Shown here piece after piece: positions 24,004 through 33,916 of a stretch of DNA of 64,000 nucleotides; within the stretch, counting starts at the first letter, position 1; each line of letters starts with the position of its first letter. The notes below the pieces were generated by a model. That model was not told the DNA's origin. It did no database searches and saw nothing but the letters and a program-made list of their open reading frames with translations. The position numbers and the translations under genes were made by a program. Source of the DNA: a virus (taxonomy: Duplodnaviria; Caudoviricetes); IMG/VR virus record IMGVR_UViG_3300042935_001404, one strand, 5' to 3'.

Positions 24004-24280
24004 AAAAACCCTAGGCAGTGTTTAGACTGCCAATGCTTCCTTGGCTGTACGAGCAGAGAACTTGACGTTCTTACCAGAAACAGTTACGGTTTTGTTTACG
24101 TTTGCATTTACGTTTTTTGCTTGATTAACGGTCATCGCCTACCGTGCTGTCCACTTGTTTACTTGTTGCCCTGTCGAATCTAGTGCTCCCCCACCTAAAT
24201 ATACTGAATACATTTAGGTGGAGGAGGGGGGATTCGCACCCCCGTCCAAGACACTTTTCTCTTTGCTTCATACAGCAATA
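23971..24280 (-). ncRNA. ssrA: Circularly permuted (two-piece) tmRNA
   Basis: Acceptor piece (~24280-24217, T-arm GGGGG-TGCGAAT-CCCCC then CTCCTCC-A-CC) precedes a 24-nt spacer and the coding piece starting GGGGGAG-CACTAGATTCGAC (24192); G3.U70 pair; tag 24105-24022 ANVNKTVTVSGKNVKFSARTAKEALAV* with the stop codon in a hairpin loop. Confidence 0.92.
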
Positions 24281-24285
24281 ACTCT

Positions 24286-24293
24286 TATTTATA
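24286..24293 (-). promoter_or_regulatory. T4-type late promoter TATAAATA upstream of tmRNA
   Basis: Exact octamer about 6 nt before the acceptor piece. Confidence 0.6.
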
Positions 24294-24295
24294 AT

Positions 24296-24370
24296 TGGTT
24301 GCGGGGGAAGGACTCGAACCTCCGGCTTCCAGGTTATGAGCCTGGCGGTCTACCACTGACGTACCCCGCG
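24296..24370 (-). tRNA. tRNA-fMet(CAT), initiator-like
   Basis: C1:A72 mismatch, loop CT-CAT-AA; anticodon stem ends AGG/CCT rather than GGG/CCC. Confidence 0.88.
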
Positions 24371-32414: not shown

Positions 32415-33176
32415 TTAAAGATTTTTAAAAACTTTTTTTATAATTGCACTGCGATCCAGTTTGGAACTGGCACCCAGCACAATGACTGCGTACTGTTGTT
32501 TGTTGTGTTCTACCAGCATGGCCACACACCATCCAGCAAGATTAGTAAATCCAGTCTTGCTCACGTCCACACGGGTAAACTCTGCCAACAGTGGACGGGA
32601 TGTGTGAACCAGGTTCACAGAGCTGCCGCCTATTTTGTCAAGTTTTTTCAACAGCACAGTTGACTGCCCACTGGCTTCTTGTATAAACCAATAGTTGGCA
32701 GCAATCTGTACCATTTCTATTAGATCCCGTGCAGTGGACACATTGAACACACCCAGGCCTGACGGATCTACAAATTTAGTATTTCGAAGATTCCACATCC
32801 GGGCATGTCGATTCATTTCAGCTACAAAGGCAGATCGGCCTCCGGGGTAGTTCTGTGCAATGGTTTCGGCTGCTCCGTTGTCACTGCTGACCAGCATGGC
32901 CAGCAACAACTGTTCTCTGGTGTACCTGCCGGGCGGCAATCGACTGCCGGTGTTTTTTCTCAGCACCAACTGCTGTTGAAGATCTCTGTTGTGATCCAAT
33001 GCAACCATGGCAGTCATCAACTTGGTCACACTGGCCATTGATCTGATTTGATCACTATTTTGACTCAGTTCCGTGCGCTGTGCATTGATGTTGTAGACCA
33101 ACACTGTGGGCTCACGTGCGTGGGCCGTTGCATTGGATAAAACTGTACAAAAAAGTACTGCGGCAAATAATTTCAT
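32415..33176 (-). CDS. D-alanyl-D-alanine carboxy/endopeptidase (peptidase S11, PBP7-like)
   Basis: Signal peptide; ASVTK (SxxK), SDN (SxN), FVDPSGL, KTG. Confidence 0.92.
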   Translation of the reverse strand: MKLFAAVLFCTVLSNATAHAREPTVLVYNINAQRTELSQNSDQIRSMASVTKLMTAMVALDHNRDLQQQLVLRKNTGSRLPPGRYTREQLLLAMLVSSDNGAAETIAQNYPGGRSAFVAEMNRHARMWNLRNTKFVDPSGLGVFNVSTARDLIEMVQIAANYWFIQEASGQSTVLLKKLDKIGGSSVNLVHTSRPLLAEFTRVDVSKTGFTNLAGWCVAMLVEHNKQQYAVIVLGASSKLDRSAIIKKVFKNL

Positions 33177-33194: not shown

Positions 33195-33269
33195 TGGAAC
33201 ACAGGACAGGACTCAAACCTGCATGATACGGATTTGCAATCCGTTGCGTAATCATTCCGCCACCTGTGC
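33195..33269 (-). tRNA. tRNA-Cys(GCA)
   Basis: Loop TT-GCA-AA, U73. Confidence 0.92.
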
Positions 33270-33280
33270 ATATACGTCGA

Positions 33281-33415
33281 ACACACTGTTTCCAATGTGT
33301 GTATTAAAGCACTCTAAAATACTTAGGCTGCCTGTTCTTAAAGAATGCTTTAATACGAACTAATTTTTCCTCCCACACAAGGGATTCCATCCTAGTCGCC
33401 GCCCGTTCGTGCTTG
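33281..33415 (-). ncRNA. Candidate three-domain structured leader/ncRNA upstream of tRNA-Cys
   Basis: ACGAAC/GTTCGT domain; 15-bp GTATTAAAGCATTCT/AGAGTGCTTTAATAC stem; ACACATTG-GAAA-CAGTGTGT hairpin. Confidence 0.45.
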
Positions 33416-33420
33416 TTTAT

Positions 33421-33450
33421 AGTGTAGCACAGGACCTCGTTTCCTGTCAA
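33421..33450 (-). promoter_or_regulatory. Sigma70-type promoter TTGACA-N18-TACACT with extended -10 TG
   Basis: Consensus match. Confidence 0.6.
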
Positions 33451-33461
33451 CACTTTAGGAT

Positions 33462-33623
33462 TTATGTCCAAAGTTGATTCTTGACTCGCATGCGAGTTTC
33501 GAGTTCCAACCTAGCACGTTCCAACTTTTCCCGAATCAACTTTTCACGTTGTTCCGGTGTCAGTGTGTGCTCTGTTGTGTACTTTACTTCACGCATTCGT
33601 TGTTTTAAATCTAATTTCTTCAT
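33462..33623 (-). CDS. 53-aa highly charged helical protein, first gene after the attenuator
   Basis: AAAGGA SD; MKKLDLKQRMREVKY...LETRMRVKNQLWT*. Confidence 0.7.
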   Translation of the reverse strand: MKKLDLKQRMREVKYTTEHTLTPEQREKLIREKLERARLELETRMRVKNQLWT

Positions 33624-33641
33624 TTTTCCTTTTCTAAAAAC

Positions 33642-33673
33642 AAAAAACCCTAGGGTTTTTAATCCTAGGGTCC
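33642..33673 (-). terminator. Attenuator terminator
   Basis: ACCCTAGG/CCTAGGGT 8-bp stem followed by a U-tract; its 5' arm can instead pair with 33711-33722. Confidence 0.8.
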
Positions 33674-33698
33674 TTGGAGTTTGTGTGTAAACTTTTAT

Positions 33699-33839
33699 TT
33701 ACGACATGGTCTCCTGGACCCTGGTACCCTCTGGTGTGCGATCATATGACATGCTATTGATTGCCGACCAAATAGAGGGCGCGAAGCCGGCCTGTTTGGC
33801 TAAACAATTTGATATAGAATGTAATACGTTTGTTTGCAT
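33699..33839 (-). CDS. 46-aa leader peptide containing all 20 amino acids
   Basis: MQTNVLHSISNCLAKQAGFAPSIWSAINSMSYDRTPEGTRVQETMS*, between a promoter and a terminator. Confidence 0.7.
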   Translation of the reverse strand: MQTNVLHSISNCLAKQAGFAPSIWSAINSMSYDRTPEGTRVQETMS

Positions 33840-33887
33840 TTTTGTTTCTTTAAATTTATATACACCTTTTTATTGGCGCATGTGTGT

Positions 33888-33916
33888 ATTGTATAGGTTT
33901 ATTTATACAAGGTCAA
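33888..33916 (-). promoter_or_regulatory. Dual promoter: TTGACC-N17-TACAAT with an embedded TATAAATA (33900-33907)
   Basis: Both consensus elements upstream of the leader peptide. Confidence 0.75.

What the first reader, a model, noticed from the sequence alone, without database searches (positions are those of the whole stretch)
33642..33916. Attenuator with a leader peptide using all 20 amino acids: a candidate sensor of the whole tRNA pool
Seen: dual promoter, then a 46-codon ORF containing every amino acid (single W, C, H, K, F, Y, D) with high synonymous diversity (all three Ile codons, four Ser codons, three Ala codons, CGC and AGG), then an intrinsic terminator. The last leader codons AGGGTCCAGGAG (33722-33711) can pair with CTCCAAGGACCCT (33679-33667; 7 bp + 1x2 loop + 4 bp), which overlaps the terminator 5' arm. 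A ribosome reaching the stop codon would mask this strand and allow termination; a stall upstream would allow antitermination into the tRNA array. Known: amino-acid attenuators use runs of one codon type, while generic uORF stall sensors control whiB7/wblC. A phage leader that samples all amino acids ahead of a tRNA array is not something I know to be described.
Basis: partly seen in the sequence, partly recalled or inferred. Interest (0 to 1): 0.92.

Follow-up and report, generated by a model that had tools for sequence, protein, structure and literature searches.

The report
Twenty-amino-acid leader gating phage tRNAs
A family of lake-water giant phages puts a ~47-codon mini-gene that almost always contains all 20 amino acids in front of their tRNA genes. 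It is wired to an RNA switch that should let transcription run on only when a ribosome cannot finish reading it, which would make it a built-in test of the cell's whole tRNA supply.

Summary
The 46-codon ORF (33839..33699, minus strand) contains all 20 amino acids and is followed by an intrinsic terminator. The terminator's 5' arm can instead pair with the last leader codons.

In this window alone, full coverage is not significant: about 3% of 46-residue stretches of the phage's own proteins have it. The ORF, however, belongs to a large family found only in uncultured freshwater jumbo phages.
- 114 of 126 distinct homologues (42-55 aa) keep all 20 amino acids.
- 101 of 137 cluster representatives (median pairwise identity 34%) also do.
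- Single Cys, His, Tyr and Lys residues sit at different positions in different members.
- Column-shuffle and tree-aware nulls give far lower coverage.

The antiterminator helix covaries (A-U 64, G-C 56, G-U 9, no A-C). It is read in different frames. Its GGGTCC arm ends 14-18 nt before the stop codon in 121 of 130 versions. It is always more stable than the terminator. All 115 loci with enough downstream sequence carry a same-strand tRNA within 1.1 kb.

Best reading: a ribosome-dependent attenuator with whiB7-uORF logic that releases a structured RNA and tRNA array when any charged tRNA runs short. Translation and termination were not tested. The scan had not noted this on other DNA.

The parts
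33888..33916 (-). Sigma-70-type promoter TTGACC-17-TACAAT that drives the leader
   Evidence: scores it 10 of 12. TTGACA-17-TAtAAT is present at the same place in every relative. Metatranscriptome contigs end at about 33869-33872, just downstream of the predicted start.
33856..33882 (-). 5'-terminal hairpin of the leader transcript (long-5'UTR class only)
   Evidence: It folds at -8.1 kcal/mol, z -3.6. An equivalent hairpin with a different sequence is present in relatives. It is absent in the leaderless subclass.
33699..33839 (-). Leader ORF: 46 codons plus TAA, with all 20 amino acids
   Evidence: The ORF is intact in all complete relatives. Synonymous changes occur at conserved residues. 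114 of 126 distinct homologues have all 20 amino acids, and so do 101 of 137 representatives of 50%-identity clusters.
33726..33776 (-). Possible hairpin within the ORF, pairing the Trp-codon region with the DRTPE codons (weak evidence)
   Evidence: RNAalifold predicts it, but the pairs are invariant, so there is no covariation. Single-sequence z is -1.2, not significant. It could explain the near-invariant codons GAT CGY ACA CCA GAG.
33711..33724 (-). Antiterminator 5' strand (segment 2): CC-AGGGTCC-A-GGAG, leader codons 39-43
   Evidence: It pairs with 33679..33664. GGGTCC is read in frame 0 in 74 versions, frame 2 in 54 and frame 1 in 2. It ends 14-18 nt before the stop codon in 121 of 130 versions.
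33684..33706 (-). Apical hairpin of the antiterminator, which contains the stop codon
   Evidence: Equivalent hairpins of different sequence occur in relatives. At least 2 stop-codon bases are paired in 85 of 117 versions.
33664..33679 (-). Shared strand (segment 3): CTCC-AA-GGACCCTAGG. It pairs either with segment 2 or with the terminator 3' arm
   Evidence: The closing pair with segment 2 is A-U in 64 versions, G-C in 56, G-U in 9, one C/U mismatch and no A-C. The second pair is C-G in 126, U-A in 3 and U-G in 1.
33636..33672 (-). Intrinsic terminator: 8-9 bp stem, conserved 9-nt loop ATTAAAAAC, then T6-G-T5
   Evidence: It folds at -13.6 kcal/mol, z -3.4. 97% of cells are paired across 30 relatives, with C-G, U-G and U-A variants.
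33462..33623 (-). 53-aa charged small ORF, the first gene after the terminator in this lineage (16 amino-acid types)
   Evidence: It is absent or replaced by other small ORFs in many relatives. There is a weak match to phrog_20536, of unknown function.
33275..33455 (-). Conserved structured RNA of unknown class between the attenuator and the first tRNA
   Evidence: 22 of 31 predicted pairs show compensatory changes across 12 relatives. No Rfam family matches.
33195..33269 (-). tRNA-Cys(GCA), the first tRNA of the array downstream of the attenuator

Best explanation
This is a ribosome-dependent transcription attenuator at the head of a phage stable-RNA operon (a structured RNA plus tRNA genes).

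Proposed mechanism:
- Host RNA polymerase starts at a strong sigma-70 promoter and transcribes a ~47-codon leader ORF.
- The last codons of the ORF (GGGTCC..GGAG) can pair with the 5' arm of the downstream intrinsic terminator. This forms a three-tier antiterminator hairpin whose tip holds the stop codon. On naked RNA this hairpin is about 10 kcal/mol more stable than the terminator, so the default state is read-through.
- A ribosome that translates the whole leader melts this hairpin and sits on the stop codon, 14-18 nt past GGGTCC. The shared strand is then free to form the terminator, and transcription stops.
- A ribosome held up anywhere earlier leaves the antiterminator intact, and polymerase runs on into the RNA/tRNA array.

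The leader is kept by selection as a near-complete 'pangram' of the 20 amino acids, usually complete within the first ~37 codons and with excess codon diversity. Shortage of any charged tRNA, from starvation, host shut-off or tRNA-cleaving defences, should therefore switch the array on. That gives negative feedback on tRNA supply.

Shown here: the anatomy, its conservation and covariation, selection for full amino-acid coverage, and the linkage to tRNA genes.
Inferred: that the ORF is translated, the direction of the switch, and the physiological trigger.
For: Family and ORF:
- There are 112 relatives in viral contigs, more than 120 in metagenomes, and 180 clusters at 50% identity.
- The ORF is intact in every complete copy. 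Conserved residues show synonymous variation.
- One subclass is leaderless, with the ATG 1-4 nt after the predicted start site.

Amino-acid coverage:
- 56 of 60 peptides have all 20, against 20.9+-2.9 under a column shuffle.
- 8 of 10 representatives below 60% identity have all 20, against 3.2+-1.3, P=0.0008.
- A tree-aware simulation gives 26-31 +-9 of 60, against 56 observed.
- 114 of 126 peptides have all 20, and 94 of 126 reach it by the DRTPE motif at about residue 37.
- 101 of 137 cluster representatives have all 20, against 27.6+-4.3 under a column shuffle.
- In that set His is missing once (32.7 expected) and Tyr once (20.6 expected). Both occupy many different alignment columns.
- Phage genes have all 20 in 0.6% of 37-aa windows and 3-4% of 46-48-aa windows.
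- Leaders use 36.2 distinct codons, against 33.4 expected from the peptide and the phage's codon usage.

RNA switch:
- Antiterminator helix: 99% of cells paired; 0 of 500 shuffles reach the observed score.
- Closing pair: A-U 64, G-C 56, G-U 9 and no A-C. The reading frame of the element varies. The spacing to the stop codon is tight.
- The antiterminator is more stable than the terminator in 121 of 121 versions.
- The stop codon lies inside the apical hairpin.
- RNAalifold selects the antiterminator as the consensus fold.

Context:
- A same-strand tRNA lies within 1100 nt downstream in 115 of 115 loci. Only 15 of 131 have one upstream. No tRNA is on the opposite strand.
- The hairpins of the downstream RNA covary, so they must be transcribed from upstream.
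- The leader is present in RNA libraries.

Precedent:
- The whiB7 uORF has the same logic. Its amino-acid content sets which starvations are sensed, and a single Trp codon is enough (PMC10274678).
Against: - There is no direct evidence of translation, of termination at the T-run, or of any response to stalling. The RNA data are assembled contigs summed over relatives and cannot give a termination ratio.
- A pure 'sampler' does not explain the strongly conserved peptide core (KQAGF..W..DRTPE) or the near-invariant codons there.
- 10-26% of members lack one amino acid, mostly Cys or Val, so the constraint is strong but not absolute.
- Glu, and often Val, lie so close to segment 2 that a stall there may mask rather than free it.
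- In 6 of 130 versions the stop codon is more than 18 nt past GGGTCC.
- In this window the 15-kb array has further promoter-like sites, so the attenuator may gate only its first part.
- Leader codons are not enriched for those read by the phage's own tRNAs: 36 of 46, equal to the gene average of 78%.
Confidence: 0.6

Rival explanations
1. The attenuator is real, but the sensor is the conserved nascent peptide (W...DRTPE) acting in the ribosome exit tunnel, as in TnaC, SecM or ErmCL. It would stall or slow release in response to a specific ligand or state. The complete amino-acid set would then be secondary.
For: W24, D33, R34, T35 and P36 are invariant, and E37 nearly so, across 70 diverse members. 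The motif lies 9-13 residues from the C-terminus, which is tunnel-constriction range when the stop codon is in the A site. That placement follows from the spacing. Its codons are nearly invariant.
Against: This does not explain why rare residues occupy different positions while coverage stays complete. There is no sequence match to known arrest peptides or to any family. The invariance could instead reflect an RNA hairpin. The two ideas are also compatible: a slow-release motif would help the same attenuator.
Confidence: 0.15
2. The ORF encodes an ordinary small trans-acting phage protein, for example a two-helix DNA- or RNA-binding peptide. It is followed by a plain, leaky terminator. Full amino-acid coverage is a by-product of purifying selection plus compensating contacts.
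For: The amino-acid sequence is conserved with synonymous changes. AlphaFold2 proposes two helices, residues 2-18 and 21-30. Some residue swaps (Tyr 23/32) could reflect contact compensation.
Against: The model has low confidence: pLDDT 62.6, pTM 0.22. No family or structure matches. Cys, His and Tyr occupy 16-26 different alignment columns, usually as a single copy, yet are missing far less often than column independence predicts. That is not how structural residues behave. GGGTCC is conserved in different reading frames, covaries with the terminator arm, and outcompetes the terminator in 121 of 121 versions. None of this is needed for a plain terminator.
Confidence: 0.1
3. The long hairpin is mainly a processing or stability element, for example an RNase III site or the 3' end of an abundant small RNA that acts in trans. 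It would not be a translation-controlled switch.
For: Depth is high over the conserved hairpin and terminator in metatranscriptome contigs. Attenuator-derived small RNAs with trans functions are known, such as rnTrpL (PMC6614838, listed).
Against: That depth sums many relatives over the only conserved 50 nt. The idea explains neither the intact ORF, nor the ruler-like distance to the stop codon, nor the amino-acid coverage.
Confidence: 0.05

Closest known systems
whiB7 / wblC uORF attenuator of Actinobacteria
   Same: A short upstream ORF is followed by a Rho-independent terminator. Efficient translation gives termination, and impaired translation gives an antiterminator and read-through. It is a general translation-stress sensor. 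The amino acids present in the uORF determine which starvations are sensed, and a single Trp codon suffices (PMC10274678).
   Different: The whiB7 uORF is 25-40% alanine and variable in content: the M. smegmatis uORF lacks Cys and the M. tuberculosis uORF lacks several amino acids. It controls a transcription factor in a cellular genome. Here the leader is not Ala-rich (about 3 of 47 residues). Complete coverage is itself conserved, with rare residues at varying positions. The element is phage-borne and the output is a structured RNA plus tRNA genes. There is no sequence relation.
Classical amino-acid operon attenuators (trpL, hisL, leuL, thrL, ilvL, pheL)
   Same: They combine a leader peptide, mutually exclusive antiterminator and terminator hairpins, and an intrinsic terminator. 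Ribosome position decides the outcome, and a ribosome at the stop codon favours termination.
   Different: They use runs of one to three cognate codons and control biosynthetic genes. They also have a 1:2 pause/anti-antiterminator hairpin, so no translation gives termination. Here every amino acid appears, mostly once or a few times. No convincing 1:2 hairpin was found, so no translation should give read-through. The genes controlled are tRNAs.
Multi-signal sensory uORFs such as E. coli toiL, and antibiotic-sensing leaders (ermCL, vmlR, mef/msr)
   Same: Short ORFs in which ribosomes stalled at different positions remodel the downstream RNA structure. toiL responds to at least five antibiotic classes (PMC12121999).
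   Different: toiL acts through ribosome-binding-site occlusion and Rho. None is reported to be selected for a complete amino-acid set or to control tRNA genes.
Leaderless polycysteine short ORFs of mycobacteria
   Same: Leaderless short ORFs as the first cistron that act as amino-acid-responsive attenuators (bioRxiv 10.1101/834739, listed). One subclass here is also leaderless.
   Different: They sense a single amino acid (Cys) and belong to a different host and a different gene class.
T-box riboswitches
   Same: They couple tRNA charging status to an antiterminator/terminator choice.
   Different: T-boxes bind one uncharged tRNA directly, without translation. No T-box or other Rfam family matches here.

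Membership tests
Ribosome-mediated (leader-peptide) transcription attenuator | A short ORF in the leader transcript that is translated | tested here: met
   The ORF is intact in all complete relatives. Conserved residues show synonymous variation. The start context is conserved, or leaderless in one subclass. Actual translation could not be tested with these tools.
Ribosome-mediated (leader-peptide) transcription attenuator | An intrinsic terminator between the leader ORF and the downstream genes | tested here: met
   A stem of 8-9 bp plus a T-run at 33672..33636, z -3.4. 97% of cells are paired across relatives.
Ribosome-mediated (leader-peptide) transcription attenuator | An antiterminator that is mutually exclusive with the terminator | tested here: met
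   The two structures share the ACCC(U/C) strand. The helix is 99% paired and covaries: A-U 64, G-C 56, G-U 9. It is more stable than the terminator in 121 of 121 versions.
Ribosome-mediated (leader-peptide) transcription attenuator | The ORF end is placed so that a terminating ribosome blocks the antiterminator | tested here: met
   The stop codon lies 14-18 nt after GGGTCC in 121 of 130 versions, whatever the reading frame. It lies inside the apical hairpin.
Ribosome-mediated (leader-peptide) transcription attenuator | Read-through rises when ribosomes stall in the leader | not testable with these tools
   This needs reporter, Term-seq or in-vitro coupled assays.
Classical amino-acid biosynthetic attenuators (trpL/hisL type) | Tandem or clustered codons for the cognate amino acid(s) | tested here: not met
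   All 20 amino acids are present and seven occur once. No residue is enriched in runs.
Classical amino-acid biosynthetic attenuators (trpL/hisL type) | A 1:2 pause/anti-antiterminator hairpin upstream of the antiterminator | tested here: inconclusive
   A hairpin between the Trp-codon region and the DRTPE codons is predicted. It is invariant, so there is no covariation, and its z is -1.2. It does not involve segment 2.
whiB7/wblC uORF attenuator | An alanine-rich uORF upstream of a WhiB-family regulator in Actinobacteria | tested here: not met
   The leaders average about 3 Ala in 47 residues. Downstream lie a structured RNA and tRNAs. The host is probably betaproteobacterial. The element works like this system but is not a member of it.
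T-box riboswitch | A specifier loop and T-box sequence that bind uncharged tRNA | tested here: not met
   No Rfam family reaches its threshold in the region, and permissive hits are noise.
Peptide-arrest leaders (TnaC, SecM, ErmCL) | A conserved arrest motif acting in the exit tunnel at a defined stall site | tested here: inconclusive
   The conserved W...DRTPE motif lies 9-13 residues from the C-terminus. It shows no similarity to known motifs or families. Arrest cannot be tested here.

The most novel reading that the evidence does not exclude
The leader is a dedicated 'whole-alphabet' probe of the charged-tRNA pool and closes a feedback loop. When any tRNA species fails, the phage derepresses its own tRNA and structured-RNA island. 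Causes could include host anticodon nucleases such as PARIS/AriB, PrrC-like or retron-linked tRNases, host shut-off, or starvation. The island also carries a two-piece tmRNA further along, at 24022-24345. This would be the first described regulated, damage-sensing control of a phage tRNA array. It would also be the first case where completeness of the amino-acid alphabet in a peptide is itself the selected trait.
Probability: 0.4. Interest if true: 0.92.

Novelty: new variant of a known kind. Interest (0 to 1): 0.85.

Why it matters
Phage tRNA arrays are usually discussed as constitutive codon supplements or as spares against tRNA-cleaving defences (PMC10264068, PMC12409363, listed). How they are regulated is essentially unknown.

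This is a large, conserved family in which array expression appears to be gated by a translation test that needs every amino acid. If that holds:
- It shows that a peptide can be selected for the completeness of its alphabet rather than for its sequence.
- It gives a natural, compact, genetically simple reporter of shortage of any charged tRNA.
- It predicts that these phages sense and answer attacks on the tRNA pool.

The idea is directly testable with a ~300-nt synthetic construct, even though no member has been cultured.

Tried and rejected
- Rfam, at gathering and permissive thresholds, finds no family over the leader or the downstream RNA.
- DNA and tblastn searches of 50,697 deposited phage genomes with two family members find nothing. 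No cultured phage in that collection carries the element.
- The word-indexed protein search finds nothing. Pfam, PHROGs and the PDB profile search give no meaningful match for the peptide.
- AlphaFold2 with 70 homologues gives a low-confidence model: pLDDT 62.6, pTM 0.22. I did not send it to fold searches.
- The 'dual promoter' is rejected. Only one consensus promoter is found and conserved.
- The sigma-70-like site at 33450..33421 is rejected as the general promoter of the array. Its -35 is not conserved in relatives, and it overlaps two covarying hairpins that must be transcribed from upstream.
- The idea that the leader uses codons matched to the phage's own tRNAs is rejected. It uses 78%, equal to the gene average.
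- A 1:2-type hairpin within the ORF is not significant.
- My early idea that the ORF is a non-coding RNA with paralogues, based on weak tblastn hits with in-frame stops, was dropped. Those hits lie in other genes' positions, and the ORF proved to be coding.
- Metatranscriptome contigs show the region in RNA libraries. They cannot quantify termination, because depth sums many relatives over the conserved 50 nt.

Full report
**1. What is in the window**

All features below are on the minus strand.
- A consensus sigma-70 promoter, TTGACC-17-TACAAT, lies at 33916..33888.
- It is followed by a ~40-nt 5'UTR with a terminal hairpin.
- A 46-codon ORF occupies 33839..33699.
- After a ~20-nt spacer comes an intrinsic terminator: stem ACCCTAGG/CCTAGGGT, a 9-nt loop, then T6-G-T5 ending at 33636.

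The ORF has all 20 amino acids. W, C, H, K, F, Y and D each occur once, and the ORF uses 34 distinct sense codons.

Only one promoter is supported, not two.

**2. Chance**

Taken alone, the 'all 20' property is weak evidence.
- 3.0-3.2% of 46-residue windows in the phage's own long ORFs have it.
- A model drawing residues independently from that composition gives 4.3%.
- 2 of 171 ORFs of 40-52 aa in the window have it.

A reader scanning 64 kb would meet such an ORF by chance. The question therefore had to be settled with relatives.

**3. Relatives**

The window is from an uncultured freshwater jumbo phage. The closest held record is 97% identical. Related contigs reach 347 kb.

No deposited phage genome carries the element, and the word-indexed protein search found nothing. 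Other searches were productive:
- Anchoring on neighbouring genes and then on a peptide alignment gave 112 relatives in viral contigs.
- The same pattern gave a single hit in a genome collection, on a 6-kb contig of a Polynucleobacter MAG.
- A profile search of 1.84 billion cluster representatives found 180 clusters at E<=0.001.

The ORF is intact in every complete copy, at 41-55 codons. Conserved residues show synonymous variation, for example Ala GCC/GCG/GCA, Gly GGC/GGT, and Leu with five codons. It is therefore a real coding sequence.

**4. The alphabet is conserved**

| Data set | With all 20 | Null expectation |
|---|---|---|
| 60 distinct peptides from viral contigs | 56 | 20.9+-2.9 (column shuffle) |
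| Representatives below 70% identity | 15 of 18 | 5.2+-1.7 |
| Representatives below 60% identity | 8 of 10 | 3.2+-1.3 (P=0.0008) |
| Same 60 peptides, tree-aware simulation | 56 | 26-31 +-9; one of 1200 runs reached 56 |
| 126 distinct peptides with metagenome copies | 114 (90%) | - |
| 137 representatives of 50%-identity clusters (median pairwise identity 34%) | 101 (32 more have 19) | 27.6+-4.3, maximum 41 (column shuffle) |

The tree-aware simulation used column-specific rates and frequencies.

Of the 126 peptides, 94 (75%) are already complete by the DRTPE motif, at a median of 37 residues. Only 0.6% of 37-residue windows of the phage's genes reach that.

The rare residues sit at different positions in different members.
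- In the 60-peptide set, Cys occupies 9 alignment columns, His 9 and Tyr 8. Each is present exactly once in 90-93% of peptides and is never absent. Column independence predicts 17.7, 12.1 and 9.1 absences.
- In the 137-representative set, His is missing once (32.7 expected) and Tyr once (20.6 expected).
- Close relatives show direct swaps. One has ..PSSW..SLSYD.. and its sister has ..PSYW..SLSND...
- When the core KQ becomes AQ, a Lys appears upstream.
- When the usual His is lost, one appears inside the core.

Leaders also use more distinct codons than the null expects.
- Leaders average 36.2 distinct codons.
- Same-length windows of the phage's genes give 29.9+-2.6.
- The expectation from the peptide and the phage's codon usage is 33.4, and 94% of leaders exceed it.

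As an internal control, the neighbouring 53-aa ORF has only 16 amino-acid types.

**5. The RNA switch**

The element GGGTCC, inside the last leader codons, and GGACCC, the 5' arm of the terminator, are present in all members. Evidence for the pairing:
- In 130 distinct versions the closing pair is A-U 64, G-C 56, G-U 9, with one mismatch and no A-C. The next variable pair is C-G 126, U-A 3, U-G 1.
- On a 30-sequence alignment the helix is 99% paired, and 0 of 500 shuffles reach the observed score.
- The partner in the terminator 3' arm is mostly G, giving U-G or C-G. The segment-2/segment-3 covariation is therefore not a by-product of terminator covariation.
- GGGTCC is read in frame 0 in 74 versions (..RV..), frame 2 in 54 (..GS..) and frame 1 in 2. 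The constraint is on RNA, not on the peptide.
- GGGTCC ends 14-18 nt before the stop codon in 121 of 130 versions. That is about the trailing edge of a ribosome with the stop codon in its A site.

The full antiterminator is a three-tier hairpin.
- The base is GGGTCC/GGACCC.
- The middle tier is GGAG/CUCC or CUUC.
- The tip is a variable but maintained hairpin that contains the stop codon.

In the window it folds at -25.4 kcal/mol (z -6.2), against -13.6 (z -3.4) for the terminator. Across 121 versions the means are -26.1+-2.5 and -15.1+-1.1. The antiterminator wins in every case and is in the minimum-energy fold in 109. RNAalifold on whole leaders also selects it.

**6. Context**

Every member has a TTGACA-17-TAtAAT promoter. 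There are two designs.
- One has a ~45-nt 5'UTR with a terminal hairpin.
- The other is leaderless, with the ATG 1-4 nt after the predicted start site and a tRNA gene just upstream.

All 115 loci with at least 1100 nt of downstream sequence carry a same-strand tRNA within 1100 nt (median 486 nt). Only 15 of 131 have one within 1100 nt upstream. No tRNA is on the opposite strand.

Between the terminator and the first tRNA lies an optional small ORF and then a conserved ~190-nt structured RNA. The small ORF is the 53-aa ORF in this lineage. In the structured RNA, 22 of 31 predicted pairs show compensatory changes.

The first two hairpins of that RNA overlap the sigma-70-like site at 33450..33421. 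They must therefore be transcribed from upstream, through the terminator.

Metatranscriptome contigs contain the leader. Their ends lie near the predicted start site, and one contig from a relative spans the terminator into the structured RNA. These data cannot quantify termination.

**7. Mechanism**

Naked RNA folds into the antiterminator, so the default state is read-through. A ribosome that completes the leader must melt the two upper tiers and abuts the base helix while it sits at the stop codon. The shared strand then pairs with the 3' arm, and polymerase terminates.

A ribosome stalled earlier, or absent, leaves the antiterminator in place. Because the leader needs every amino acid, lack of any charged tRNA should induce the downstream RNA/tRNA array. 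That is a feedback on tRNA supply.

The anatomy, its conservation, and the selection on the alphabet are shown. Translation, the direction of the switch and the trigger are inferred.

**8. Comparison with what is known**

The logic is that of the actinobacterial whiB7 uORF.
- Efficient uORF translation gives a Rho-independent terminator, and translation stress gives an antiterminator.
- The amino acids encoded by the uORF decide which starvations are sensed.
- Converting the single Trp codon to Ala strongly reduced the response to Trp deprivation (PMC10274678).

That paper also shows what differs from the present case.
- whiB7 uORFs are 25-40% alanine.
- They vary in content: the M. smegmatis uORF lacks Cys and the M. 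tuberculosis uORF lacks several amino acids.
- They control a transcription factor.

Here completeness is itself conserved, the element is viral, and the output is tRNA genes.

Classical trp/his-type attenuators differ in using runs of cognate codons and a 1:2 hairpin. I found no convincing equivalent of that hairpin. Literature searches found no description of a whole-alphabet leader or of an attenuator on a phage tRNA array.

**9. Open points and rivals**

The peptide core (KQAGF..W..DRTPE) and its near-invariant codons are not explained by a pure sampler model. They may reflect one of three things:
- a nascent-chain effect that slows release at the stop codon;
- an RNA hairpin within the ORF;
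- a second, trans-acting role of the peptide.

AlphaFold2 gives only a low-confidence two-helix model, pLDDT 62.6.

Leader codons are no more matched to the phage's own tRNAs than are ordinary genes: 36 of 46, against 78%. The probe would therefore read the combined host-plus-phage pool.

**10. Verdict**

This is a new variant of a known regulatory kind, and it is of high interest.

Noticed in passing
window 33275-33455 (-): A conserved ~190-nt structured RNA of unknown class sits between the attenuator (or the 53-aa ORF) and the first tRNA. It has a hairpin with loop AACGAGG, a hairpin with loop GCACTATAAACA, an AACGGGCGG stretch, and a long closing stem TATTAAAGCA.../...TGCTTTAATA. 22 of 31 predicted pairs are compensatory in 12 relatives. 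No Rfam family matches.
   Followed up: partly
window 24022-24345 (-): A two-piece (permuted) tmRNA gene lies inside the tRNA array. It matches Rfam tmRNA_permuted at 129.9 bits and beta_tmRNA at 96.5 bits. The betaproteobacterial type fits a Burkholderiales host.
   Followed up: no
L249 (Polynucleobacter sp. MAG contig JBBAKF010000113.1), 5825-5901: This is the only hit of the leader DNA pattern among 185,579 species genomes. It lies on a 6.2-kb contig binned with Polynucleobacter. It is probably a mis-binned phage fragment and so a hint to the host.
   Followed up: no
window 33421-33450 (-): A near-perfect sigma-70 site, TTGACA-18-TACACT with TG, overlaps the first two covarying hairpins of the structured RNA. 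Its -35 is not conserved in relatives. It is either lineage-specific or coincidental.
   Followed up: partly
window 33462-33623 (-) and equivalent positions in L072, L080, L088, L098, L117: The first small ORF after the terminator differs between lineages. Several versions share a motif like ..EF..QHTLT.. near the N-terminus. This is a possible family of small charged proteins. In many relatives the ORF is absent.
   Followed up: no
L066 ~1930-2015, and similar stretches in L077, L078, L082, L089, L110: ARAGORN did not call tRNA-like genes with a long variable arm, an anticodon-loop sequence CTGTAAC and a ...GGTTCGATTCC...CCACCA 3' end that lie upstream of the first called tRNA. This suggests non-canonical tRNAs that standard scanners miss.
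   Followed up: no
window 32415-33176 (-): A 253-aa D-Ala-D-Ala carboxypeptidase / PBP7-like peptidase gene is embedded in the tRNA array (phrog_5304, E 4e-21).
   Followed up: no
window 33655-33663 (-): The 9-nt terminator loop ATTAAAAAC is conserved across nearly all family members, far more than a terminator loop needs. The reason is unknown.
   Followed up: no
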